Virus record (IMG/VR): IMGVR_UViG_3300042446_000574
Origin: an uncultured virus (IMG/VR IMGVR_UViG_3300042446_000574)
Lineage: Duplodnaviria > Heunggongvirae > Uroviricota > Caudoviricetes
Direction: 5' to 3' (one strand)
Length of the DNA: 64,000 bases
Below the pieces are notes generated by a model that made no database searches, was not told where the DNA came from, and was given only the letters and a program-made list of their open reading frames with translations. The position numbers and the translations under genes were made by a program. Below, in pieces: positions 18,195-64,000 of this stretch. How positions within the stretch are numbered: position 1 is the first letter of the stretch; each line of letters begins with the position of its first letter.

Positions 18195-18486
18195 CCTTTG
18201 TAAATATAATCGTTGGCACGGTCACCTTTTCCCCCTGCGTCGTGATATCAATGTTTTGCTTTGCCTTGCCATAAGCACGGTCAAGGAGCAACTGAGCCGC
18301 CTTGATGTCACCCTTTGCCGCCTGTTCCCTTAGCTTCATGATAATTGCCTCGGCTGCGGTAATACCGTCTTTTTCCTGACCCATGACATTTGCCATGATA
18401 AGGTCAAGGGCGGGAAGTTTTTTAGGGCGACCTGTTCCAACCGTGTTTCCTGATTTCAATTTGCCTCCGTGTTTTCCTTCCCTCAT
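18178..18486 (-). CDS. terS: Terminase small subunit (GRPK-type)
   Basis: GRPKK and A.KGDIKAAQLLLDRAYGK motifs; directly upstream of terL. Confidence 0.75.
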   Translation of the reverse strand: MREGKHGGKLKSGNTVGTGRPKKLPALDLIMANVMGQEKDGITAAEAIIMKLREQAAKGDIKAAQLLLDRAYGKAKQNIDITTQGEKVTVPTIIFTKDGDKS

Positions 18487-19274
18487 GATTCGAGATTTAA
18501 ACGAGAATTGATTCCATTATTTTTAAAAACTTTCCAATCAACAAAATGATGAATACGGTTAAAACGTATTACAGTTTTTGCATATTGCGGCCACTGTGCC
18601 TCTAACATTTTTGCTTTTAAAAGTTTCTTTTTTGGGTCATTGCCTTTGTATAATTCATCTTGATTCCCTCCTTTCATTTTTTTGGACGTACTTACTTTAT
18701 TAATTGTATAATAAACACAACTTCCAGTACTACCTCCATTATGTAATACTTGTAAACACAAATCTACATCCTCATTATATTTAAGTCTCCACCGATAAGG
18801 CAAACTATTTTTTATTAACAATGCTGAATAAATATGACAATTATTTTTAAAAGGTTTTTTAGGTATTTTTCTAACAAAATTATATTCCTCAAATCCTCCC
18901 AAATCAATATTATTTTTTAATGTGTAATTTTCAATATATGACAAAGATGTTTTTATGTCTTTTATTTGACATCTTTTTCCATTAATCCATTTATAAAAAG
19001 ATGTTATGTTATCGTCAAATAACCAATGATGCGTATATCCTAATTTTATCGAATGCTCCCAACAAAAATTTCTTGCAGGAAAACTTCCAAGTCCTAAATT
19101 TGCAAAAGGTAATTTTAACACCCTTTCTTTTCCCAATTTATTTACATAACTATCATATTCTTGTGGCTCAACTGCTATTAAATAATCTAAGTTATCTGCT
19201 TCAAATAAATTTGCAGTCATTGTAACGTCAAATCTTCCTTTGCTAATTATGTAAACAGGGAATTTATTTTGCAT
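18483..19274 (-). CDS. GT-A fold glycosyltransferase (TET/JBP-associated or GREB1-like), candidate DNA modifier
   Basis: PVYIISKGR, ARN, HWLFDDNI, YNEDVDLCLQ and KGGN motifs; downstream of the ParB-like gene. Confidence 0.7.
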   Translation of the reverse strand: MQNKFPVYIISKGRFDVTMTANLFEADNLDYLIAVEPQEYDSYVNKLGKERVLKLPFANLGLGSFPARNFCWEHSIKLGYTHHWLFDDNITSFYKWINGKRCQIKDIKTSLSYIENYTLKNNIDLGGFEEYNFVRKIPKKPFKNNCHIYSALLIKNSLPYRWRLKYNEDVDLCLQVLHNGGSTGSCVYYTINKVSTSKKMKGGNQDELYKGNDPKKKLLKAKMLEAQWPQYAKTVIRFNRIHHFVDWKVFKNNGINSRLNLES

Positions 19275-19304
19275 ATTTTGTACTTAAATTAACGTGCCAT
19301 ACCC

Positions 19305-19853
19305 CTACATCGTCACCACCAAATTTTTATAATCATATTTCATCTTATTTTTATCATACCATTCGGCTGCTAAATCTTCATTATCAAAAATAAAAATAAT
19401 ACGATGCAATCCTTTTGAATTACCAACAGGGTCAAACTCTTCATTAATATCCAATTCATCTTCATTCATTGTGTTTAATTCTGAACCTGCCGACCAATTC
19501 GGTATCTCCATGCCCCACGCTTCCAAGTCCACCACGTCCCAATCGTTCGCCAGTGTATCCCAGTCCCATTCTCCAAATGCTACATTGTCCGCAATGATAA
19601 ACCGCTTCTTTTCCTCCTCAGTTAAATCGCTGCTTCGCTTTACCCATGTTTCATCCACGTCCGTAAATCCAAGTTCTTGCAAGGCGCGAAGCCTCATGTT
19701 TCCCCCGAGTACCACGTTATTTTCGTCAATGACCATCGGGCGAAGCGATAGCATCTTTGGAAACTCCTGTATGCTTTGCTTTAGCTTTTGAAACTTGTCG
19801 TCCCTTAGGACGCGTGGGTTGTTCGGGTTTGGTTTTATATCCTTTAGCTTCAT
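19305..19853 (-). CDS. ParB/Srx-like N-terminal domain protein
   Basis: IKPNPNNPR, VLGGNMRLRA and IADN motifs. Confidence 0.85.
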   Translation of the reverse strand: MKLKDIKPNPNNPRVLRDDKFQKLKQSIQEFPKMLSLRPMVIDENNVVLGGNMRLRALQELGFTDVDETWVKRSSDLTEEEKKRFIIADNVAFGEWDWDTLANDWDVVDLEAWGMEIPNWSAGSELNTMNEDELDINEEFDPVGNSKGLHRIIFIFDNEDLAAEWYDKNKMKYDYKNLVVTM

Positions 19854-20854
19854 ATACTTTTTAACACTTGTTTACGTTTGTTGTTGACGGTGAGAAGATT
19901 TCGCTCAGTCAAAAGCCATTTTCTCCCAGCCTGCAAATGATTAAAATAATCCCCGTCCTTTTCCAACGCCTTTTCAAATTGTCCGCTTAAATCGTCGTTG
20001 CCCTCGTACAACCGCACGCCTGGGACATTGAACTCCGTTATTTCCTTCGGTGCATAAGGAACGCAACCAGTGACAAGCATCTCCATCGCAAAGTTATTCG
20101 ACTTACTTTGGTTAAAATTGTCATTTGTCAACGGGAACACGGCGTAATGTGCCGCACTGTTTTTAATGAGCTCAAAGTATTGAAACAAGGAATTGTTCCA
20201 CGGTATGACCTTTACATTTGGGTAAAGCGTTTTGCCCAACCACTCAGGAATACCAATAAATGCAACCTCTGTGTCCTTGCGGCTGCTGACATAATGCCAA
20301 AATATATCCACGGTTTTTAAATCCTCAATGTGTGTCATGCTTCCACGCCACAACACGCGTTTAATCTTTGCCTCAAGTTTATCAGGTGACACGGGACAAA
20401 GTGGCGTCACTTGAAAGTCAATAGCGTTAGGAATAACCATTATTTTACTTTCGTCAAAGAATTGTTTGTAAAACTCTTTGAGGTACGGCGTTGAAACGAT
20501 TATATAATCGGCATACTTGAAAGCCTTTTCAACAGATTCTTTTACCTGCGTTTTACCGAAGTGTGCCGACGCTGGATTCGCAGCGTTAACCTCATGTAAT
20601 AAATCGTCGTGGTCAAGAATGATTTTTTTACCCATCTTCTTCGCCTCCGCGATCATTGATAACATTCCGTCACCATTGGGCCGTTGAAACAGGATAACGT
20701 CAACGTCGTAAAAATCATACCACTTTACCGTCTCAGGATTAAGGTAAGTAATATGAAGATTTATCATCTGGGAGCGAAGCCGCATGAATGGATTAACGGA
20801 ACGATAATAATCGGTCGTTGGACTGGTTAAATTGGTGACAATGCCTAACCTCAT
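19850..20854 (-). CDS. GT-B fold glycosyltransferase
   Basis: YYR..P, FQRP, DHDDL, VSTPYL, VIPNAID and NFNQSKSN motifs. Confidence 0.8.
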   Translation of the reverse strand: MRLGIVTNLTSPTTDYYRSVNPFMRLRSQMINLHITYLNPETVKWYDFYDVDVILFQRPNGDGMLSMIAEAKKMGKKIILDHDDLLHEVNAANPASAHFGKTQVKESVEKAFKYADYIIVSTPYLKEFYKQFFDESKIMVIPNAIDFQVTPLCPVSPDKLEAKIKRVLWRGSMTHIEDLKTVDIFWHYVSSRKDTEVAFIGIPEWLGKTLYPNVKVIPWNNSLFQYFELIKNSAAHYAVFPLTNDNFNQSKSNNFAMEMLVTGCVPYAPKEITEFNVPGVRLYEGNDDLSGQFEKALEKDGDYFNHLQAGRKWLLTERNLLTVNNKRKQVLKSI

Positions 20855-21235: not shown

Positions 21236-21613
21236 TTAAAATGGGAGTGATTCGTCTTTTACCGTTGTTTCATTTGTCATCTTCGGGTTGTTCTCCCCAG
21301 GCGTTGCCTTGCCTCCAAATTCAATGTTATTTACCATGCAACGAATAACGCCCGTTGGTTCTCCGTTCTTCATGTACGCATTAACCCCACCTGTTCCTTC
21401 GACTACGACATACGTACCCTTTACCAAATGAGGCGCAAGTTTGGAACCACGGTCACCCCACATTGAACACGTCACCCAAACCGTCTTTTCCGTTGGATTG
21501 TTTCCAAATGTCTTTTCCGTATGTGCCACGGAGAAAGAACAAACGGTTGTATCACCAACGGACTTGATTTCAGCATCTGTACCAAGGCGACCCGCAACTA
21601 TTAATTTTATCAT
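21236..21613 (-). CDS. ssb: Single-stranded DNA-binding protein
   Basis: GRLG.DAE, FSVA, W, KGT.V.VEG motifs and acidic ...LPF tail. Confidence 0.92.
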   Translation of the reverse strand: MIKLIVAGRLGTDAEIKSVGDTTVCSFSVAHTEKTFGNNPTEKTVWVTCSMWGDRGSKLAPHLVKGTYVVVEGTGGVNAYMKNGEPTGVIRCMVNNIEFGGKATPGENNPKMTNETTVKDESLPF

Positions 21614-21632
21614 TGTTTTTATTTTCTTTCTG

Positions 21633-21640
21633 CAAATATA
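21633..21640 (-). promoter_or_regulatory. Bacteroidota -7 promoter box (TATATTTG) for the leftward operon
   Basis: Fits TAnnTTTG; copy B has TATCTTTG (63661-63668), changed only at an n position. Confidence 0.65.
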
Positions 21641-21688
21641 ATATTATTTTTGTTATCAAATTTAAAATATTTTTTAAGAATATATTTA

Positions 21689-21696
21689 TATCTTTG
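21689..21696 (+). promoter_or_regulatory. Bacteroidota -7 promoter box (TATCTTTG) driving the tRNA-like array
   Basis: Fits TAnnTTTG; copy B has TAACTTTG; divergent from the ssb promoter. Confidence 0.7.
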
Positions 21697-21699
21697 TGG

Positions 21700-21768
21700 C
21701 GCAAGTTAGTTTAGTGTTAAAATGTTTTGCGACGGCAAAAAGACGAAGATTAGATTCCTTCACTTGCA
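21700..21768 (+). ncRNA. tRNA-like RNA 1 (degenerate; anticodon arm closed by a 4-nt GACG loop)
   Basis: GCAAGT/ACTTGC acceptor, TAGTTTAGTGTTAAAAT D-like arm, TTTTGC-GACG-GCAAAA, GAAGA-TTAGATT-CCTTC T-like arm; one change in B. Confidence 0.55.
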
Positions 21769-21772
21769 AATT

Positions 21773-21845
21773 AGCAAGGTGGCGGATGGGTAGCGCAAAG
21801 CGGCGACCGCGGCTGACATTGTGGGTTCAAATCCCACCCTTGTTA
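21773..21845 (+). ncRNA. tRNA-like RNA 2 with no canonical anticodon loop
   Basis: AGCAAGG/CCTTGTT acceptor, GCG..CGC D-stem, GTGGG-TTCAAAT-CCCAC T-arm; middle folds as GCGG-CGA-CCGC. Confidence 0.7.
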
Positions 21846-21914
21846 ACTTACCACCCGAAGGTTGAGCAATGCTGGCACCGTGCGTTGATAAAGGGATGGA
21901 ACGGTGTAAATTTT

Positions 21915-22037
21915 AGCAAGATGGCGGAATGGTAGACGCACAAGTCGGATGGGTGGAGTATCGTAGCCCAAGGTTATACTTCCTTAACAAAAAAAAGTAG
22001 GGAGATACTCGTACGGGTTCGATTCCTGTTCTTGCTG
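21915..22037 (+). ncRNA. tRNA-like RNA 3 with a ~72-nt insert replacing the anticodon/variable region
   Basis: AGCAAGA/TCTTGCT, TGGCGGAATGGTAGACGCA (Leu-type D arm), ACGGG-TTCGATT-CCTGT. Confidence 0.75.
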
Positions 22038-22053
22038 CTAAAAAATTAAGGTT

Positions 22054-22311
22054 ATGAATATTAAACAATTAAAAGAATCAATCGCAAATCTTCCTGACGA
22101 AATGGAAGTGGTTTTACAAAAAGATAGTGAGGGTAACGGGTATAGTCCACTTAAAGGTGTTGACTCAGATGCTGTTTACATTCCTTATAATACATGGTCA
22201 GGGGATGTTTATTCAATTGGATGGACTTCAGATGAAGCTGATATGTCAGATAAAGAATGGCAGGAAATAAAGTCGAAACCAAGAATTTTGATTTTATATC
22301 CTGTTAATTAA
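22054..22311 (+). CDS. Hypothetical protein (85 aa) inside the ncRNA array
   Basis: LPDEMEVVLQKDSEGNGYSPL, a phage-type small protein. Confidence 0.7.
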   Translation: MNIKQLKESIANLPDEMEVVLQKDSEGNGYSPLKGVDSDAVYIPYNTWSGDVYSIGWTSDEADMSDKEWQEIKSKPRILILYPVN

Positions 22312-22320
22312 TATTAACTT

Positions 22321-22422
22321 AGTCAGGTGGCGGAATGGTAGACGCACATCCTAAATACATTCAGATGGTGGAACTGAATTAATTGGGTGTACCACTTGCG
22401 GGTTCGAATCCCGTTCTGACTA
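22321..22422 (+). ncRNA. tRNA-like RNA 4 with an extended hairpin replacing the anticodon arm
   Basis: AGTCAGG/TCTGACT, same Leu-type D arm, GCGGG-TTCGAAT-CCCGT; insert ATTCAG-ATGGTGGAA-CTGAAT. Confidence 0.75.
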
Positions 22423-22427
22423 CTTTT

Positions 22428-22470
22428 TAAACCTCTCTTAAATCTCTAATAAATCTCTCTTAACCTCTCT
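22428..22470 (+). repeat. Four tandem 10-11 bp repeats TAA(A)YCTCTMW
   Basis: taaacctctct taaatctctaa taaatctctct taacctctct. Confidence 0.7.
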
Positions 22471-22524
22471 TAAAATTAAACCTTATTCCTAACCTCAGGA
22501 ACATGGTAATAAAAAACAAAACAA

Positions 22525-23133
22525 ATGATTGATAACAAATTTTTTTTTGACAAATCCGTTGAACTTGGTTTTACCACGCGCGACTACGAACCCCTTGTTT
22601 CCTTGCATACCAACGGCGCAAGGGTTTTGCAAATCATGGGGTGTGAATCCGTGTTTGAGTTCGGATCAGGACTTGGATTCTTTTTATCCGCCTGCCAGCG
22701 CGTGGGCTTGTATAAACACGTTGGGTATGACATTAACCCGTATGAAAGGGAATTTGCAATAAGCAAGGGCATTGACCCAGGGAGATATTTACTTGCCAAA
22801 TGGGTGACGAAATACCAGTTAGGAAGATATGAATTAAAGACTCATGGTTCATACGATGCCATTTACTCCACCGAAGTCTTTGAACACATGACCGACGAAC
22901 AAATTAGCTTTGTCATGCCAATCCTTTACAAGACCTGTAAAAAGTATTTTTATTTTACGTCCACTCCTCATGCCTCAGCCGATCCAGCGTTCGACATTGA
23001 ATGGGGACATATTAACCTGAAGCAAAAGGACGAATGGGTTGCCTTGTTTCATCGACACGGTTTTGACTTGCTGAGGGAAGCGACGGAGGTAACGCCGTGG
23101 GGGCTTTTGTTCGTGAAACGGGAGAAAAAGTAA
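22525..23133 (+). CDS. Class I SAM-dependent methyltransferase
   Basis: VFEFGSGLG, GYDIN, YDAIYSTEVFEHM and GHIN motifs. Confidence 0.85.
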   Translation: MIDNKFFFDKSVELGFTTRDYEPLVSLHTNGARVLQIMGCESVFEFGSGLGFFLSACQRVGLYKHVGYDINPYEREFAISKGIDPGRYLLAKWVTKYQLGRYELKTHGSYDAIYSTEVFEHMTDEQISFVMPILYKTCKKYFYFTSTPHASADPAFDIEWGHINLKQKDEWVALFHRHGFDLLREATEVTPWGLLFVKREKK

Positions 23134-23137
23134 AGGT

Positions 23138-23266
23138 ATGGCAAATTATATTAAGGCAGCATTGGACAAGGTTTTGACATACGAAACACCGCCAGCCGTG
23201 GTAAAATACATGGAAATGCAAAGCGCACTGGGGAATCCGCCGTGGAAAAAAAGAAGGAGAAAGTAA
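23138..23266 (+). CDS. 42-aa basic peptide (not in the ORF track)
   Basis: MANYIKAALDKV...PPWKKRRRK fills the gap after the methyltransferase. Confidence 0.4.
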   Translation: MANYIKAALDKVLTYETPPAVVKYMEMQSALGNPPWKKRRRK

Positions 23267-23277
23267 TTAATATTTTG

Positions 23278-23389
23278 TATATTTGTAATGTTCTTTTGAA
23301 TGGCGTAGCAGGTATTCAAAAGGAAATTGGAACAAACCATTGTTCTAACCCTTTGCCAACGAACTGCTACTCGTTGGCAATTTTTTTTT
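23278..23389 (+). promoter_or_regulatory. Promoter box plus three-hairpin leader/attenuator, copy 1
   Basis: TATATTTG; P1 TTCTTTTGAAT/ATTCAAAAGGA; P2; terminator TTGCCAACGA/TCGTTGGCAA + T9; loops GTAGCAG and CTGCTAC are complementary. Confidence 0.75.
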
Positions 23390-23395
23390 ATACTC

Positions 23396-24664
23396 ATGCA
23401 AATATTAAAAGAACTTGAAGTCTTAATCCCACCGTTAACAAGTGAGGAATTTAAGCAACTGGAACGTAATATTCTTGAAGAAGGAATACGCGACCCATTG
23501 GTGACATGGAACGGTATTTTAGTCGATGGACACAACAGGTACAGGATTGCTCAGGAATACGACATTGACTTTGAAACCGTGGAAAAGGAATTTCCAGATA
23601 TTTTAACGGTAAAGGTTTGGATGATTGTAAATCAATTCGGGAGAAGGAATTTAAACAATTATCAACGGAGTGTTTTAGCCTTGCATCTTGAAGGCGTTTA
23701 CAATGAGAAAGCAAAGGAAAAGCAAAAAGGAGGACAAGGAGGTATTTTGCTTCCGCAGAAATCTGCGGAAGGAAATAAATTAGAAAATGAGACAAGGTAT
23801 AAATTAGGTAAAGTTGCGAACGTTTCACATGATACGATAAGCAAGGTAAAGAAGATTGAAGCCACCGCCTCCCCCGAAATCAAGGCAAAGGTAAGCACTG
23901 GGCAAATAAGCATAAACGAGGCATTTAAGGAAATCAAGAAGGAGGAGAATGAACAATCAAAAACGCAAAAGGCGATTGAGATAATTGAAAAAGTTTACGA
24001 AAGCAATACAAATATTTTTCATGGAAATTGTATCGAGTTTATTAAAACCATTGAGGATAAAAGTATTGACTGTTTAATAACCGACCCACCCTACGGCGTT
24101 GACATTCAATTTGGCGCGTATGACAATCAACTGAGCCGCAAGATTGAAAACGATGGAAACATTGACGATGCTTTGCTTTTGCTTGATGAAATGTTACTTG
24201 AAGTAAAAAGCAAATTAAAAGACAATGCACACATTTACATTTTTTGTAACTGGAAAATATATCCTCAATTCAATGCAATTATTTCAAAGCATTTTCAAAT
24301 CAAGAACCTCATAATATGGGATAAATTATTCATGGGAATGGGTGACTTAAAAGGGAATTATTCGAGCTCTTATGAAATGATTGTTTTCGCTGGAGGCAAC
24401 AGGGAATTTTTATCAAGACCCAAAAATATAATTCAATGCAGATTTAATGATGAAAGATTTCATAACACTCAAAAGCCCGTTGATTTAATTAAGCAACTCA
24501 TTGAAAATAGTACCAACGTCAATGAAACAATTTTCGATCCTTTCCTTGGAAGTGGCTCAACTGTCATTGCGGCAAATCAATTAAAAAGAAATTTCATTGG
24601 ATGCGAAATTGACGAACAAAATTATAAGATAACTTTAAAAAGACTTGAAGATGGTAAGTGTTAA
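23396..24664 (+). CDS. ParB-like domain fused to a beta-class N6A/N4C DNA methyltransferase
   Basis: LVDGHNRY; TDPPY, HNTQKP and DPFLGSGST in beta order; ATG 23396 preferred over the TTG inside the leader. Confidence 0.9.
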   Translation: MQILKELEVLIPPLTSEEFKQLERNILEEGIRDPLVTWNGILVDGHNRYRIAQEYDIDFETVEKEFPDILTVKVWMIVNQFGRRNLNNYQRSVLALHLEGVYNEKAKEKQKGGQGGILLPQKSAEGNKLENETRYKLGKVANVSHDTISKVKKIEATASPEIKAKVSTGQISINEAFKEIKKEENEQSKTQKAIEIIEKVYESNTNIFHGNCIEFIKTIEDKSIDCLITDPPYGVDIQFGAYDNQLSRKIENDGNIDDALLLLDEMLLEVKSKLKDNAHIYIFCNWKIYPQFNAIISKHFQIKNLIIWDKLFMGMGDLKGNYSSSYEMIVFAGGNREFLSRPKNIIQCRFNDERFHNTQKPVDLIKQLIENSTNVNETIFDPFLGSGSTVIAANQLKRNFIGCEIDEQNYKITLKRLEDGKC

Positions 24665-27125: not shown

Positions 27126-27158
27126 GTGGGGCATAGAAATTATGCCTCACTTTTTTTT
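27126..27158 (+). terminator. Intrinsic terminator
   Basis: GTGGGGCATA-GAAAT-TATGCCTCAC + T8. Confidence 0.8.
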
Positions 27159-27167
27159 AATTTATTT

Positions 27168-27219
27168 TTGTAAATATTTTTTTATTCAAATAATTATATT
27201 TAAATTTACGTATTGAAAA
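27168..27219 (+). promoter_or_regulatory. Repeated ~52-bp intergenic element, copy 1 of 3
   Basis: TTGTAAATATTTTTTT...TTAAATTTACGTATTGAAAA. Confidence 0.7.
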
Positions 27220-27237
27220 TAACAAAAGCCAATTATC

Positions 27238-27456
27238 ATGATGACAATGAATGAATTAAAAAACCACTTTGACAAGGTTCACGAATTAGTAGCCGATGCA
27301 GCATTTGTAAAAACTGTTTATCACGCGGTAAAATCTCAGGGTTGCACCGATGAAGAATGGGAGGCAAACAAAATGCCAATAGTTGCAAGAATGGCAAACG
27401 AGTATCTAAACAAGTTAGACCAGGATATTAAAAAAGTTCAAGAATCATGGAGCTAA
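27238..27456 (+). CDS. Hypothetical protein (72 aa)
   Basis: ORF directly after the repeated element. Confidence 0.6.
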   Translation: MMTMNELKNHFDKVHELVADAAFVKTVYHAVKSQGCTDEEWEANKMPIVARMANEYLNKLDQDIKKVQESWS

Positions 27457-30017: not shown

Positions 30018-30386
30018 ATGGAAGTTATGACCGACGATTTGGAAAATGAATTGAAAAAGATAATGAAATCAGATACAAGGGGACTGAGGTTCAACGATGA
30101 AAAAATCAGATACGACCTTATTCCCCCGTTGGCTAACCGTGAATGCGCCAAAGTTTGGACGAAGGGTTTGGACAAATATCCAGCTGGCAACTGGGAAAAG
30201 GGAATGCCGTGGAGCGAGGTGATTGCCTCCGCCTTACGTCACCTTGAAGCCATTCGCCTCGGTGAGGACATTGACCAGGAAAGCGGTTGTTTGCACGCGG
30301 CGCACTTGCAATGCAACGCTCAGATGTTGACTGAATATTTTTACACAAAAAAGGAATTTGATAACCGTAAAAAATACGACAAATGA
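30018..30386 (+). CDS. dATP/dGTP diphosphohydrolase-domain (DUF5664-like) protein
   Basis: K.RYDLIP, G..KY...NW.KG, RHL and D.ESG..H.AH..CN motifs. Confidence 0.8.
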   Translation: MEVMTDDLENELKKIMKSDTRGLRFNDEKIRYDLIPPLANRECAKVWTKGLDKYPAGNWEKGMPWSEVIASALRHLEAIRLGEDIDQESGCLHAAHLQCNAQMLTEYFYTKKEFDNRKKYDK

Positions 30387-30604
30387 AAATAAAAACGGCA
30401 GTTGAAATTTTAGAAACAAGTTTACTTGGCATTGTTTCTTTTGATTCAGAAGTACTAAGAGATAAATACAAAGAGCGTTTTAAAATTGCCAAACAAATAG
30501 AAAAGGAACAACACGAAATTACTTTTAATGAAGCACTTGACGAAAATTCAAATCGTTGGTTTGAAAAATATTACAACGAAACTTTTAAAAACGAAACAAA
30601 ATGA
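30383..30604 (+). CDS. Mini-protein (TAVE...AK..EKEQ...YYNETFK family)
   Basis: ATGA overlaps on both sides. Confidence 0.6.
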   Translation: MKIKTAVEILETSLLGIVSFDSEVLRDKYKERFKIAKQIEKEQHEITFNEALDENSNRWFEKYYNETFKNETK

Positions 30605-30870
30605 TTTTAACAGCCAAAGAAGAAGCAAAAGAATTAGTTGGACTATTCTATATGACAATGCCTAACGACACTTTGATTCATGAGCCTTTAGGAGAATTTC
30701 AAGAAATTTTTGCGGCTTTAAACCATGCTAAACAATGTGCTTTGATTGCAGTTGATAAGATACTACAAATTTTTAATAACGAATGGACAAAATTAGATTT
30801 TTGGACAGAAGAAATAAACGGAACAATTAATTTTTGGTTAGAAGTTAAACAAGAAATAGAAAAATTATGA
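30601..30870 (+). CDS. MTPKEKAEEL-family paralog
   Basis: TAKEEAKEL, AKQCALIAVD, FWLEVKQEIEKL. Confidence 0.7.
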   Translation: MILTAKEEAKELVGLFYMTMPNDTLIHEPLGEFQEIFAALNHAKQCALIAVDKILQIFNNEWTKLDFWTEEINGTINFWLEVKQEIEKL

Positions 30871-31070
30871 AACAAACAGCAAAACAAAAAGCAGAAGAAT
30901 TGTTCAATAAAATGGATATGATAATTTACACTGACCAAGACAACGCAGATAGTCAATGTATTAGATGTGCGTTAGTTGCAGTTGCTGAAATATTAAATGT
31001 AATATGGAATACTGATATTGATGAATATGATTTTTGGCAAGAAGTAAAAGAGGAACTTCTAAAACTTTAA
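30867..31070 (+). CDS. MTPKEKAEEL-family paralog
   Basis: TAKQKAEEL, CALVAVAEIL, FWQEVKEEL. Confidence 0.7.
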   Translation: MKQTAKQKAEELFNKMDMIIYTDQDNADSQCIRCALVAVAEILNVIWNTDIDEYDFWQEVKEELLKL

Positions 31071-31082
31071 AAACGAAACAAA

Positions 31083-31616
31083 ATGATTTTAACCGACAAG
31101 ACAATTAATGACGAAATTAACGAAGGTAACATCGTTATAGAGCCTTTTATTCCTGAGAACCTTGGCACCAACTCGTATGATTTGACCTTGTCAAATACTT
31201 TGGTGCTTTACACGGAGCGCGTGTTGGATGTGCGCAAGAAAAACCCATCCGCACCAATCATTATTCCAGATGAAGGGATAATTCTGCAACCTGGCATTGT
31301 TTACCTTGCATCAACGGTGGAATACACGGAGACGTTGAAACACGTGCCAATCATTCAAGGCAAATCAAGTCTCGGGAGGCTTGGTTTATTCGTCCACGTG
31401 ACAGCAGGATTTGGCGACGTTGGATTCAAGGGACATTGGACGTTGGAGCTTTTGACGGTTCAACCGCTGAAGATTTACGCGGGAATGAAAATTGCTCAGC
31501 TGACTTACCAGGACATAAGCGAGATGCCAAATGTGTCGTATGATAAAAAGCAAGACGCAAAGTATTCGAATCAAGGCAAAGATCCAGTAGCTTCTAAAAA
31601 CTATCTTAATAAATAG
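31083..31616 (+). CDS. dcd: dCTP deaminase
   Basis: MILTD, SYDLTL, GKSSLGRLGL, AGFGDVGFKG..TLEL and Y..Q motifs. Confidence 0.92.
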   Translation: MILTDKTINDEINEGNIVIEPFIPENLGTNSYDLTLSNTLVLYTERVLDVRKKNPSAPIIIPDEGIILQPGIVYLASTVEYTETLKHVPIIQGKSSLGRLGLFVHVTAGFGDVGFKGHWTLELLTVQPLKIYAGMKIAQLTYQDISEMPNVSYDKKQDAKYSNQGKDPVASKNYLNK

Positions 31617-32615: not shown

Positions 32616-32649
32616 ATGTCCGCGTTTTTCGATGCGGACATTTTTTTTT
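32616..32649 (+). terminator. Intrinsic terminator
   Basis: ATGTCCGCGT...ATGCGGACAT + T-run. Confidence 0.75.
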
Positions 32650-32658
32650 ATTTTATTA

Positions 32659-32710
32659 TTGTAAATATTTTTTTATTCAAATAAATAATATTAAATTTAC
32701 GTATTGAAAA
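32659..32710 (+). promoter_or_regulatory. Repeated intergenic element, copy 2 of 3
   Basis: Same consensus as 27168. Confidence 0.7.
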
Positions 32711-32729
32711 AAAAACAAAAACAAAACAA

Positions 32730-33065
32730 ATGACAACTTTAGCAAAAACAACAGAAAACAACGCAAAAGTAAAAGCACTTAAAAAAATAGCTGAGACTAA
32801 ATGGACTGGAACAACTATTCACACAAATTTAGATGCTTGTTTAACAGGAATAAATTTAGATAGTACAAATTCAGGATGGTATAAACCATCGGCATCAAGA
32901 ATAGATGGATTAACTGGTATTTTTATGATAAATCAAGATGGTTCAATTTTTTGCGAAGCAAGAGTTATAAAAATAAGCGAAAAAGAATATAAAATAGAAT
33001 ATATGACAATGGCAGGATGGAACGAATTTGAAAATCTTTTTCATCAATTTATGGATGAAAACTAA
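32730..33065 (+). CDS. Hypothetical AT-rich protein (111 aa)
   Basis: Lies between the repeated element and a hairpin at 33080-33101. Confidence 0.6.
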   Translation: MTTLAKTTENNAKVKALKKIAETKWTGTTIHTNLDACLTGINLDSTNSGWYKPSASRIDGLTGIFMINQDGSIFCEARVIKISEKEYKIEYMTMAGWNEFENLFHQFMDEN

Positions 33066-33973: not shown

Positions 33974-33991
33974 ATTATTTTGCATTTATTT

Positions 33992-34043
33992 TTGTAAATA
34001 TTTTTTTGTTTCAATATTTAATATTAAATTTACGTATTGAAAA
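33992..34043 (+). promoter_or_regulatory. Repeated intergenic element, copy 3 of 3
   Basis: Same consensus as 27168. Confidence 0.7.
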
Positions 34044-34063
34044 AAAACAAAAACGTATCAATC

Positions 34064-34282
34064 ATGACAAACGAAATGCAATCTTGGAGATTTTTATACA
34101 CTAAACATTTAAGTGTAAAGCAAGCCGTAACAAAAACAGGCGCATTGAAAGAAGGCAGAAATAGTAAATGTTCTTTTATTGTAACCGATGGCAAAGATTA
34201 TTCTGAATGCTTAATGAAGGCAGTACAGGAATGTAAGTTTAATGAAAACCAATTAGTAGGCGCAAGAAAAGTAAATTATTAA
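34064..34282 (+). CDS. Hypothetical protein (72 aa)
   Basis: Follows the repeated element; hairpin AGGGCAGCT/AGCTGCCCT at 34292-34314 downstream. Confidence 0.55.
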   Translation: MTNEMQSWRFLYTKHLSVKQAVTKTGALKEGRNSKCSFIVTDGKDYSECLMKAVQECKFNENQLVGARKVNY

Positions 34283-63643: not shown

Positions 63644-63727
63644 TGTATTTTTTCTTTCTGCAAAGATAATATTTTATTTGTTATCAAATTTAAAATATTT
63701 TTTAAGAATATATTTGTAACTTTGTGG

Positions 63728-63796
63728 CGCAAGTTAGTTTAATGTTAAAATGTTTTGCGACGGCAAAAAGACGAAGATTAGATTCCTTCACTTGCA
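63728..63796 (+). ncRNA. tRNA-like RNA 1 (B)
   Basis: Near-identical to 21700-21768. Confidence 0.55.
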
Positions 63797-63801
63797 GGTT
63801 T

Positions 63802-63923
63802 AACAAGGTAGCTCAGTAGGTTAGAGCAACTGGCGACAACGGTTCGAGTCCGTTCCATACGAAAGTATGAGGTGTGTAGGGTGTCAAGCGAGTGTGCCGC
63901 GGGTTCGATTCCCGCCCTTGTAC
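63802..63923 (+). ncRNA. tRNA-like RNA in slot 2 (B) with an internal second T-loop hairpin and a GAAA hairpin
   Basis: ACAAGG/CCTTGT, GCTC-AGTAGGTTA-GAGC, AACGG-TTCGAGT-CCGTT, CATAC-GAAA-GTATG, GCGGG-TTCGATT-CCCGC. Confidence 0.75.
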
Positions 63924-64000
63924 TTACCACCCGAAGGTTGAGCAATGCTGGCACCGTGCGTTGATAAAGGGATGGAACGGTGTAAAAAGCAAGGTGGCGA

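What the first reader, a model, noticed from the sequence alone, without database searches (positions are those of the whole stretch)
21689..22422. Promoter-driven array of anticodon-less tRNA scaffolds carrying variable RNA inserts
Seen: four tRNA-shaped elements follow a TAnnTTTG box (21700-21768, 21773-21845, 21915-22037, 22321-22422). Elements 2-4 have paired acceptor stems, D arms (two with the Leu-type TGGCGGAATGGTAGACGCA) and canonical TTCRANT T-loops. Element 1 is more degenerate. None has a 5-bp stem with a 7-nt anticodon loop. The anticodon region is instead a tetraloop hairpin, a 3-nt-loop hairpin, a ~72-nt insert (GAGTATC...GATACTC) or a long interrupted hairpin. Established: RNase P and RNase Z recognise the acceptor/T/D elbow rather than the anticodon, and engineered tRNA scaffolds use this topology to stabilise cargo RNAs. 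Inference: these are not random decay, because the stems stay paired while their sequences differ. They may be natural tRNA-scaffolded small RNAs or decoys, for example for anticodon nucleases, tRNA-sensing defences or synthetases. This is my best candidate for an undescribed system.
Basis: partly seen in the sequence, partly recalled or inferred. Interest (0 to 1): 0.85.

Follow-up and report, generated by a model that had tools for sequence, protein, structure and literature searches.

The report
Phage tRNA shells with swappable inserts
This virus of bacteria carries a row of genes for RNAs that keep the body of a leucine transfer RNA but replace the codon-reading arm with interchangeable folded inserts, and many other phages do the same with many different inserts, which points to an undescribed RNA toolkit that probably helps phages against host defences.

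Summary
Confirmed, and much larger than this locus. Four tRNA-shaped genes without an anticodon arm follow a Bacteroidota -7 box in a ~42-kb phage. A second array with different content lies at 63717-64000. Related phages shuffle these modules (20 orders in 32 loci). Pattern scans of IMG/VR gave 216 distinct elements with 157 insert clusters on one tRNA-Leu-derived body. In an acceptor-blind search, 16 different acceptor stems pair at 94 of 96 positions (shuffled 46.6). A73, C74 and the 15:48 pair are mostly kept. Inserts are selected structures. A strong helix ends 2 nt before the T stem, where the Leu variable arm ends (44 of 144; shuffled 12). It is often pseudoknotted with an anticodon-stem-like helix (64 of 144; shuffled 39). 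Element 3's pseudoknot helix covaries with relatives in gut phages. Introns, decay, tmRNA and Y RNA are not supported, and no shared partner protein was found. Best reading: stable, probably leucine-chargeable tRNA mimics with no anticodon loop, acting as decoys against tRNA-targeting host defences (about 0.45). Function and processing are inferred, not shown. Ten literature searches and Rfam gave no description; T4 RnaC is the nearest precedent.

The parts
21236..21613 (-). ssb gene, divergent from the array; used as anchor for related loci
   Evidence: PHROG 44, E 1.3e-18; 56 related loci
21689..21696 (+). Bacteroidota -7 promoter box (TAnnTTTG), ending 3 nt before element 1
   Evidence: consensus from passages of PMC7366714; activity inferred
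21700..21769 (+). Element 1: tRNA body; anticodon arm replaced by a 6-bp hairpin with a 4-nt loop (21725-30/21735-40); unusual D and T loops; A73
   Evidence: Rfam 41.9 bits; helices
21773..21845 (+). Element 2: tRNA body; 24-nt insert (21797-21820) with a 4-bp hairpin and 3-nt loop (21800-03/21807-10); A73
   Evidence: Rfam 36.2 bits; ARAGORN tRNA-???; sequence
21846..21912 (+). Module X: conserved non-tRNA segment that travels between elements; possible released small RNA
   Evidence: present in 7 of the 20 module orders and in other loci; MFE z -0.38; no Rfam hit
21915..22037 (+). Element 3: Leu-type body; 73-nt insert (21940-22012) with pseudoknot S1 21950-54/21966-70 and S2 21956-62/22004-10, hairpin 21982-86/21998-22002; G73
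   Evidence: covariation with 5 relatives from other phage and metagenome contigs
22054..22311 (+). 85-aa ORF carried as a cassette between elements; no family
   Evidence: exchanged for a 58-aa ORF or absent in relatives
22321..22422 (+). Element 4: Leu-type body; 52-nt insert (22346-22397): stem 22347-51/22385-89, hairpin 22360-64/22374-78 whose loop can pair with 22392-96 (4-5 bp pseudoknot, inferred only); A73
   Evidence: Rfam 35.4 bits; same insert in another 59-kb contig, L187; one G-U to A-U variant, L465
22423..22474 (+). CT-rich direct repeats after the array
   Evidence: family D5
22525..23133 (+). Methyltransferase gene; downstream border of the variable cassette
   Evidence: Pfam Methyltransf_23, E 1.2e-9
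63717..63724 (+). -7 box of the second array (second, related phage copy)
63728..63797 (+). Second copy of element 1
   Evidence: Rfam 40.5 bits
63802..63923 (+). Different element in the place of element 2: other D arm with G15-C48, 71-nt insert
63924..64000 (+). Module X again, then the start of a further element (from 63988) cut by the window end

Best explanation
A phage cassette of non-decoding tRNA-Leu mimics with exchangeable structured domains, most likely used against host defences. SHOWN by sequence comparison: a body descended from class II tRNA-Leu is under selection for fold (acceptor, D and T arms, 15:48 pair, mostly A73 and C74). The anticodon arm is replaced either by a short capped hairpin or by a larger folded insert. 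In many inserts an anticodon-stem-like helix and a variable-arm-like helix are both present, but their strands are interleaved as an H-type pseudoknot (AC5', V5', AC3', V3' instead of AC5', AC3', V5', V3'), so no free anticodon loop is left. Strains carry different sets and orders of modules, with hybrid acceptor stems that mark crossovers in the shared arms. INFERRED: the array is transcribed from the host-type promoter. Host RNase P and 3' trimming release the units, and CCA is added (it is encoded in only 5 of 216). Many units are probably leucylated, since LeuRS reads A73, the elbow and the variable-arm orientation and not the anticodon. They cannot decode and offer no anticodon loop to cut. 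They would act as stable competitive decoys for tRNA-binding or tRNA-cutting defence proteins, and each insert would supply a different surface, which would explain the turnover. Odds: selected tRNA-shaped RNAs with functional inserts about 0.9; counter-defence decoy as the job about 0.45.
For: Acceptor-blind scan: 35 distinct elements in 112 loci, 33 pair 7/7 and 2 pair 6/7. Their 16 different acceptors pair at 94 of 96 positions against 46.6 +/- 5.1 shuffled, maximum 64; A73 in 30 of 35, C74 in 31 of 35. T-arm-anchored scan, D arm not specified: of 83 distinct bodies, 37 have a Leu-type D arm and none of these 37 is canonical. Position 15:48 is A-U in 180 and G-C in 9 of 216; all 9 G15 elements have C48. 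A strong helix ends 2 nt before the T stem in 44 of 144 insert representatives against 12.1 shuffled; pseudoknot in 64 of 144 against 39.4 +/- 5.0, maximum 51 in 30 shuffles. Element 3 family: 97.8% of cells paired, 11 pairs with double changes (2 in the pseudoknot helix), 0 of 500 shuffles as high. A second family: 100% paired, 2 double changes in the pseudoknot helix. 20 module orders in 32 loci, with hybrid acceptors in L019, L021-L023 and L025. 9 of 28 multi-member insert clusters occur on both scaffold types; only one contig repeats an insert. LeuRS identity elements from passages of PMC2377443. Precedents for tRNA-cutting defence and RNA mimicry by phages: abstracts of PMC13096335 and PMC3475682. 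DUF4435 (over cut-off in 13 of 401) and AAA_13 (70 of 401) occur in the host phylum; their link to PARIS AriB and PrrC/RloC is recalled, and AAA_13 is a broad family.
Against: No experiment or read data show processing, charging or protection. 46 of 216 elements lack A73 (28 G, 11 U, 7 C), including element 3. PMC2377443 reports that enlarging the variable arm lowers charging, so large inserts may charge poorly. 80 of 144 inserts do not pass the pseudoknot test and the chance level is high. In 37 canonical tRNA-Leu controls the variable-arm helix ends 2 nt before the T stem in 19 and 1 nt before in 17, so the geometric match is not exact. The Leu features may be ancestral baggage, and most search patterns favoured them. 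A decoy without an anticodon loop may not bind an anticodon nuclease. No defence partner was identified and the host strain is unknown.
Confidence: 0.45

Rival explanations
1. Natural carrier: the tRNA body only secures processing and stability, as engineered tRNA scaffolds do. The insert alone is the effector, as an aptamer or antitoxin-like RNA for a host protein or signal unrelated to tRNA.
For: 157 insert clusters on one body. Unpaired sequence is kept between element 3 and gut-phage relatives with unrelated acceptor stems. A free-standing module shares loop and 3' strand with the element 4 insert. Arrays almost never repeat an insert. Pseudoknotted phage RNA mimics of ToxI exist (abstract of PMC3475682).
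Against: The pseudoknot helix is tied to the variable-arm position, which a passive carrier does not need. Elements 1 and 2 have almost no cargo. ToxN is over cut-off in 0 of 401 Bacteroidota genomes (CptN, TenpN and AbiQ-specific profiles not searched). No Rfam family other than tRNA matched an element in 39 loci.
Confidence: 0.27
2. Translation-side tool: the RNAs are charged or bound by LeuRS, EF-Tu or tRNA-modifying enzymes and serve host takeover, as a sink or as a ribosome-proof aminoacyl donor, not as counter-defence.
For: LeuRS identity elements mostly kept. A Leu-type D arm dominates a D-blind search. No G3-U70 in 216.
Against: Does not explain 157 different, individually conserved inserts or strain-to-strain turnover. 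No tRNA-dependent transferase or other partner recurs near the elements or among 40 window proteins scanned in Pfam.
Confidence: 0.13
3. DNA-level role: the conserved arms are recombination sites that shuffle small genes, and the inserts are nearly neutral fillers that only need to fold.
For: Hybrid acceptors and exchange of small ORFs between arms. Canonical tRNAs with the same acceptor occur in some phages (L280, L409, L413).
Against: Compensatory changes in acceptor and insert helices show selection on RNA structure. 180 of 263 loci hold one parsed element, as does cultured phage BS-TP2 in the 211 bases scanned.
Confidence: 0.08
4. Intron-containing tRNA genes that splice to normal tRNAs.
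For: 42 of 144 inserts have a 5-bp helix placed like an interrupted anticodon stem.
Against: That is near chance (35.0 +/- 4.7). With Y32, U33 and position 38 required, 1 of 144 against 2.5 shuffled. Inserts of 16-25 nt are too short, and Rfam finds no intron family.
Confidence: 0.03
5. Decaying tRNA pseudogenes or integration-site remnants.
For: Element 1 has two mismatched pairs; some relatives have damaged T loops or acceptors.
Against: 94 of 96 acceptor pairs kept over 16 sequences; covarying insert helices; promoter box at a fixed distance in unrelated phages; no integrase among the window proteins scanned.
Confidence: 0.02

Closest known systems
Bacterial class II tRNA-Leu (Rfam RF00005)
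   Same: Same D arm, T arm, A15-U48, mostly A73, and a helix at the variable-arm position. The same D-arm pattern in GTDB genomes mostly hits canonical tRNA-Leu.
   Different: No anticodon arm or loop; inserts of 16 to about 150 nt; CCA encoded in 5 of 216; cannot decode.
T4 RnaC (species 1 RNA, 139 nt) and RnaD
   Same: Phage small stable RNA of unknown function (passage of PMC9697503). RnaC has a canonical T arm, an imperfect acceptor-like stem and a large folded interior.
   Different: RnaC shows no D arm and is a single gene in a tRNA cluster. Here the D arm is complete, the interior is often pseudoknotted, and many inserts are exchanged on one body.
tmRNA tRNA-like domain
   Same: Acceptor and T arm kept, anticodon arm replaced by a helix leading to pseudoknots (recalled).
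   Different: D stem present, no G3-U70 in 216, no conserved tag frame seen on inspection, far shorter.
Bacterial Y RNAs (YrlA)
   Same: tRNA elbow without anticodon, joined to another module; found in some phages (recalled).
   Different: YrlA is circularly permuted and goes with Ro60/Rsr (recalled). Here 5' and 3' ends form the acceptor stem, and no Ro60 protein was seen.
Allo-tRNA and irregular tRNA polycistrons (Mukai et al., PMC5389517)
   Same: Tandem irregular tRNA-like genes, some linked to toxin-antitoxin loci (passages).
   Different: Allo-tRNAs have 8/4 or 9/3 acceptor/T geometry and anticodons. These are 7/5 and have none.
Pseudo-ToxI RNA of phage PhiTE (PMC3475682)
   Same: Phage non-coding RNA that changes by expansion and recombination and blocks a defence by mimicry (abstract).
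   Different: No tandem identical repeats, a tRNA body, and ToxN not found over cut-off in 401 Bacteroidota genomes.
Engineered tRNA scaffolds for recombinant RNA
   Same: Same topology: cargo in place of the anticodon arm (recalled).
   Different: Natural, and the insert often pairs into the variable-arm position instead of hanging from an intact anticodon stem.

Membership tests
canonical tRNA | 7-bp acceptor, D arm, 5-bp T stem with 7-nt loop | tested here: met
canonical tRNA | 5-bp anticodon stem with 7-nt loop and U33 | tested here: not met
   absent in all window elements; 0 of 35 (length-selected); 0 of 37 Leu-D bodies
tRNA-Leu (LeuRS substrate) | A73, U8-A14, G18-U55, G19-C56, variable-arm orientation | tested here: inconclusive
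   A73 in 170 of 216, A14 in 211 of 216; helix at offset 2 enriched; element 3 has G73 and element 1 has altered elbow bases
tRNA-Leu (LeuRS substrate) | aminoacylation with leucine | not testable with these tools
   needs a charging assay
intron-containing tRNA | excision restores a canonical anticodon arm | tested here: not met
   1 of 144 against 2.5 shuffled
tmRNA | G3-U70 alanine identity | tested here: not met
   0 of 216
tmRNA | match to tmRNA models or tag peptide | tested here: not met
   ARAGORN reports no tmRNA; Rfam tmRNA 8.4 bits against cut-off 47, T arm only
Y RNA (YrlA) | circularly permuted tRNA domain with Ro60-binding stem | tested here: not met
   order acceptor-D-insert-T-acceptor; no Rfam Y RNA hit; definition recalled
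Y RNA (YrlA) | linked Ro60/Rsr gene | tested here: not met
   none among window proteins scanned or recognised among the 45 commonest neighbour clusters (read by eye); whole genomes of relatives not scanned
allo-tRNA | 8/4 or 9/3 acceptor/T geometry | tested here: not met
   7/5 in all window elements
T4 RnaC type | T arm and acceptor-like stem around a large interior, no D arm | tested here: not met
   complete D arm here; RnaC sequence and fold; no T4-like hit for the array in INPHARED at E 0.01
type III antitoxin mimic | similarity to ToxI-type repeats and a cognate toxin in the host | tested here: inconclusive
   no Rfam hit; ToxN over cut-off in 0 of 401; other type III toxins not searched; host unknown
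guide-RNA arrays (CRISPR- or TIGR-like) | variable parts match a target, with an effector gene nearby | tested here: not met
   blastn of 196 inserts against 1.53 Mb of masked loci and window gave hits only beside D- or T-arm sequence, none antisense to a gene; no shared neighbour protein; host genome not available

The most novel reading that the evidence does not exclude
Bacteroidota phages keep an evolvable library of RNA effectors. A host-processed, leucine-chargeable tRNA body displays one of at least 157 folded domains, often made by rewiring the anticodon and variable arms into a pseudoknot. Recombination between the constant arms swaps domains, and each neutralises a different host immune protein. 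This would be an RNA counterpart of the variable anti-defence protein loci of phages.
Probability: 0.35. Interest if true: 0.95.

Novelty: categorically new. Interest (0 to 1): 0.86.

Why it matters
tRNA finders pass over these genes or call them undetermined, so a widespread class of phage RNAs may have been missed. One member is unannotated in a cultured gut phage (Bacteroides phage BS-TP2), which makes it testable now. If they are decoys, they add an RNA layer to phage counter-defence and suggest a testable role for long-unexplained RNAs such as T4 RnaC. They also show that nature uses the cargo-in-tRNA design, and they supply about 150 compact natural RNA folds, many pseudoknotted.

Tried and rejected
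A 14-base pattern gave mostly chance hits in coding DNA. Rfam at gathering level on the window and on 19 + 20 loci gave only tRNA matches, plus one permuted tmRNA beside an element. blastn of the array against INPHARED gave 2 short hits inside genes; element 4 alone gave only arm-sized hits; L404 gave only tRNA hits among the 30 of 59 records listed. Intron reading rejected. Guide or antisense reading not supported in phage DNA; host targets untested. A tmRNA-like tag reading was considered for two inserts that start with an in-frame GGC-GAC and end in a stop; rejected because G3-U70 is absent and another insert family shows frame-breaking length changes. HDV-like or hammerhead ribozyme cores were not seen on inspection and Rfam gave none. 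T-loop-like hairpins are not enriched in inserts (13 against 12.7); GNRA hairpins are only borderline (27 against 17.5 +/- 3.8, maximum 27). Module X does not fold better than shuffles. ToxN mimicry is disfavoured. RNA runs: 13 runs hold small shares of 21300-22900, 7 on record as RNA. In the 4 runs laid, contigs cover pieces between 21719 and 22474, and apart from two 18-nt matches and one piece at 22852-22900 they do not cover ssb or the methyltransferase; contigs at depth 2-14 cannot show transcription, strand or ends, and uncovered parts prove nothing. The family is rare in cell genomes: a T-arm pattern matched 1 of 401 Bacteroidota genomes. My hand-written structure strings were out of register and are not used; one search picked the wrong 5' strand for two helices (element 2 cap, element 4 pseudoknot), which I read instead. 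Outputs were cut in the middle; counts come from later scripts.

Full report
Setting. The window holds about one and a half genomes of a tailed phage: two related copies, 86-92% alike in long blocks, offset by 41-42 kb. It encodes terminase, portal, protease, tail, holin and amidase. The 15 best terminase matches listed among cultured phages are Riemerella phages at about 45% identity, so the host is probably Bacteroidota. The array lies where strand skews switch, divergent from ssb and ahead of a methyltransferase gene.

Observation. Rfam's tRNA model hits elements 1, 2 and 4 (41.9, 36.2 and 35.4 bits; E 2.6e-7 to 1.6e-5) but not element 3. ARAGORN calls only element 2, with no anticodon. Acceptor, D and T stems pair fully in elements 2-4, and element 1 has two mismatches. 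None has a 5-bp stem with a 7-nt loop. Between them lie a conserved non-tRNA module X (21846-21912) and an 85-aa ORF without a family. The second phage copy has the same element 1, then a different element with a 71-nt insert, then module X and another element cut by the window end.

A variable cassette. Of 56 loci found through ssb, 32 carry at least one of my signature modules, in 20 different orders (two truncated). Four show only the methyltransferase and 20 show none of the signatures, though three of those 20 hold diverged elements. In L019, L021-L023 and L025 the first element joins the first bases of element 1 to another element's body. This is what a crossover in the shared acceptor sequence would leave. 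Small ORFs come and go between elements.

A large family. Pattern scans of IMG/VR and GTDB were parsed together (502 loci). After keeping bodies with the family acceptor and dropping those with C at position 2, there were 216 distinct non-canonical elements with 196 inserts in 157 blastn clusters, 136 of them singletons. They lie in 263 loci, 83 with two or more elements, always on one strand. In cell genomes the same D-arm pattern gave 35 hits, mostly canonical tRNA-Leu. The non-canonical ones were this phage in a MAG, a Pedobacter MAG and Sphingobacterium cellulitidis, whose element also stands in viral contig L188. A T-arm pattern matched 1 of 401 Bacteroidota genomes. The cultured Bacteroides phage BS-TP2 has an unannotated member with a pseudoknot-type insert.

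Selection on the body. My parser and most patterns favour paired acceptors and Leu-type D arms, so I ran two blind tests. With the acceptor unspecified and the insert length set to 40-70 nt, 112 loci gave 35 distinct elements; 33 pair 7/7 and 2 pair 6/7. Their 16 different acceptors pair at 94 of 96 positions against 46.6 +/- 5.1 when 3' strands are shuffled; A73 occurs in 30 of 35 and C74 in 31 of 35. With the D arm unspecified, 105 of 126 matches had an upstream acceptor. Of the 83 distinct bodies, 37 had a Leu-type D arm, all non-canonical; 32 were other non-canonical (some misparsed) and 14 canonical. In the 216, position 15:48 is A-U 180 times and G-C 9 times, with 27 unpaired. CCA is encoded in 5, and G3-U70 in none. 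A -7 box ends 3-4 nt before the element in 13 of 27 occurrences, which fits the consensus given in passages of PMC7366714.

Selection on the inserts. One representative per cluster was used; one merged double element and 12 inserts under 30 nt were dropped, leaving 144. A strong helix ends exactly 2 nt before the T stem in 44 against 12.1 in shuffles; other offsets are near or modestly above chance. A crossing pair of helices is possible in 64 against 39.4 +/- 5.0. In 37 canonical tRNA-Leu controls the variable-arm helix ends 2 nt (19) or 1 nt (17) before the T stem. So the terminal helix sits about where the Leu variable arm sits, and in many inserts its 5' strand lies inside the loop of an anticodon-stem-like helix. 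Element 3 has relatives with unrelated acceptors: one found without using its insert (L601) and 9 of 10 metagenome hits found with part of it. In an alignment of element 3 with 5 of these, 97.8% of cells pair. The pseudoknot helix pairs in all and has 2 double changes; the crossing helix has a mismatch in 3 of 6 rows at one pair. A three-member family gives 100% pairing with 2 double changes in the pseudoknot helix. These alignments are small and the shuffle counts are not probabilities. The element 4 pseudoknot (4-5 bp) has no covariation of its own.

What it is not. Not introns: 1 of 144 could be cut to a canonical arm, against 2.5 by chance. Not guides against the phage: blastn of the inserts against 1.53 Mb of masked loci hit only other, unparsed elements. 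No protein family recurs beside the elements outside one phage group. Rfam names no insert in 39 loci. tmRNA, Y RNA and allo-tRNA features fail (see the membership table).

How it most likely works. The array is probably transcribed from the host-type promoter. The first unit starts near the expected start site, and later units would be freed by RNase P and 3' trimming and completed with CCA (inference from general knowledge). Passages of PMC2377443 give A73, U8-A14, G18-U55, G19-C56 and variable-arm orientation as the LeuRS determinants, with the anticodon arm dispensable. That may be why a Leu body was the one reused, and it predicts leucylation of many units. The same paper warns that a larger variable arm lowers charging, and 46 of 216 elements lack A73. 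Such RNAs cannot decode and show no anticodon loop. Constant tRNA shape, high turnover of non-redundant inserts and a position in a variable cassette are what a host-phage conflict would produce. Defences that cut tRNA, and phage RNA mimicry, are known (abstracts of PMC13096335 and PMC3475682). DUF4435 and AAA_13 proteins occur in 13 and 70 of 401 Bacteroidota genomes (the link to PARIS and PrrC/RloC is recalled). I put decoy counter-defence at 0.45, pure carrier for an insert effector at 0.27, a translation-side tool at 0.13, a DNA-level role at 0.08, and introns or decay at 0.05. The first two can both be partly true. RNA-run contigs hold pieces of the array but cannot show expression.

Novelty. 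Ten full-text searches listed no paper describing this family; most subscription papers are outside that library. T4 RnaC is the nearest precedent: T arm, imperfect acceptor, no D arm, function unknown (passage of PMC9697503; PMC3014915 seen as a listing only). Passages of PMC5389517 and PMC7609411 describe irregular tRNA polycistrons with other geometry. PMC10690425 reports five tRNA-overlapping candidates of other types in the passages read. Three of its six held supplements were searched without a hit; the other three, and three larger files, could not be read, so overlap with its 10,006 candidates stays open. Earlier AI notes of this scan report other anticodon-less tRNA-shaped RNAs in other genomes. 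They are leads that I did not check, and none describes exchangeable inserts on a Leu body. Three other look-ups found nothing.

Noticed in passing
window 1-21926 versus 41224-63999: Two related phage genomes (86-92% alike in blocks) lie head to tail in one window, with different array content; may be an assembly join of co-occurring strains.
   Followed up: partly
L145, L215, L237, L253, L273, L292, L309 (just after an element): Module Y: a free-standing long hairpin whose loop and 3' tail match those of the element 4 insert, without a tRNA body.
   Followed up: partly
L506:2026-2047 and upstream of many gut-phage elements: A conserved hairpin motif with a GGAAAGAC core often lies just upstream of elements in gut and freshwater phages; no Rfam hit.
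   Followed up: partly
L122:934-1168 and 1199 onward: An element sits 30 nt after a permuted tmRNA gene in a phage contig.
   Followed up: no
L505:1291-1650 (minus strand; genome G355): A Bacteroidota genome has two tandem ~150-nt tRNA-shaped genes with a 7-nt loop arm followed by a very long variable region; a different kind from this family.
   Followed up: no
L280, L409, L413: Canonical phage tRNAs (Ile, Leu, Lys anticodons) share the family's acceptor and T arms, suggesting exchange between decoding and non-decoding genes.
   Followed up: no
L088, L095, L151, L172, L191, L192: Members with enlarged or altered T loops, and others with different acceptors inside tRNA clusters, which my parser missed or left out.
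   Followed up: no
window 22423-22474: CT-rich short direct repeats follow the array in this and several related phages; role unknown.
   Followed up: no
window 18483-20854, 22525-24664, 30018-31616: TET-associated glycosyltransferase, a second glycosyltransferase, two methyltransferases, a dATP/dGTP diphosphohydrolase domain and dCTP deaminase: possible DNA modification genes.
   Followed up: no
window 27148-27247, 32639-32736, 33975-34070: Three similar intergenic stretches of 80-100 bp (81-88% alike) in the rightward arm.
   Followed up: no
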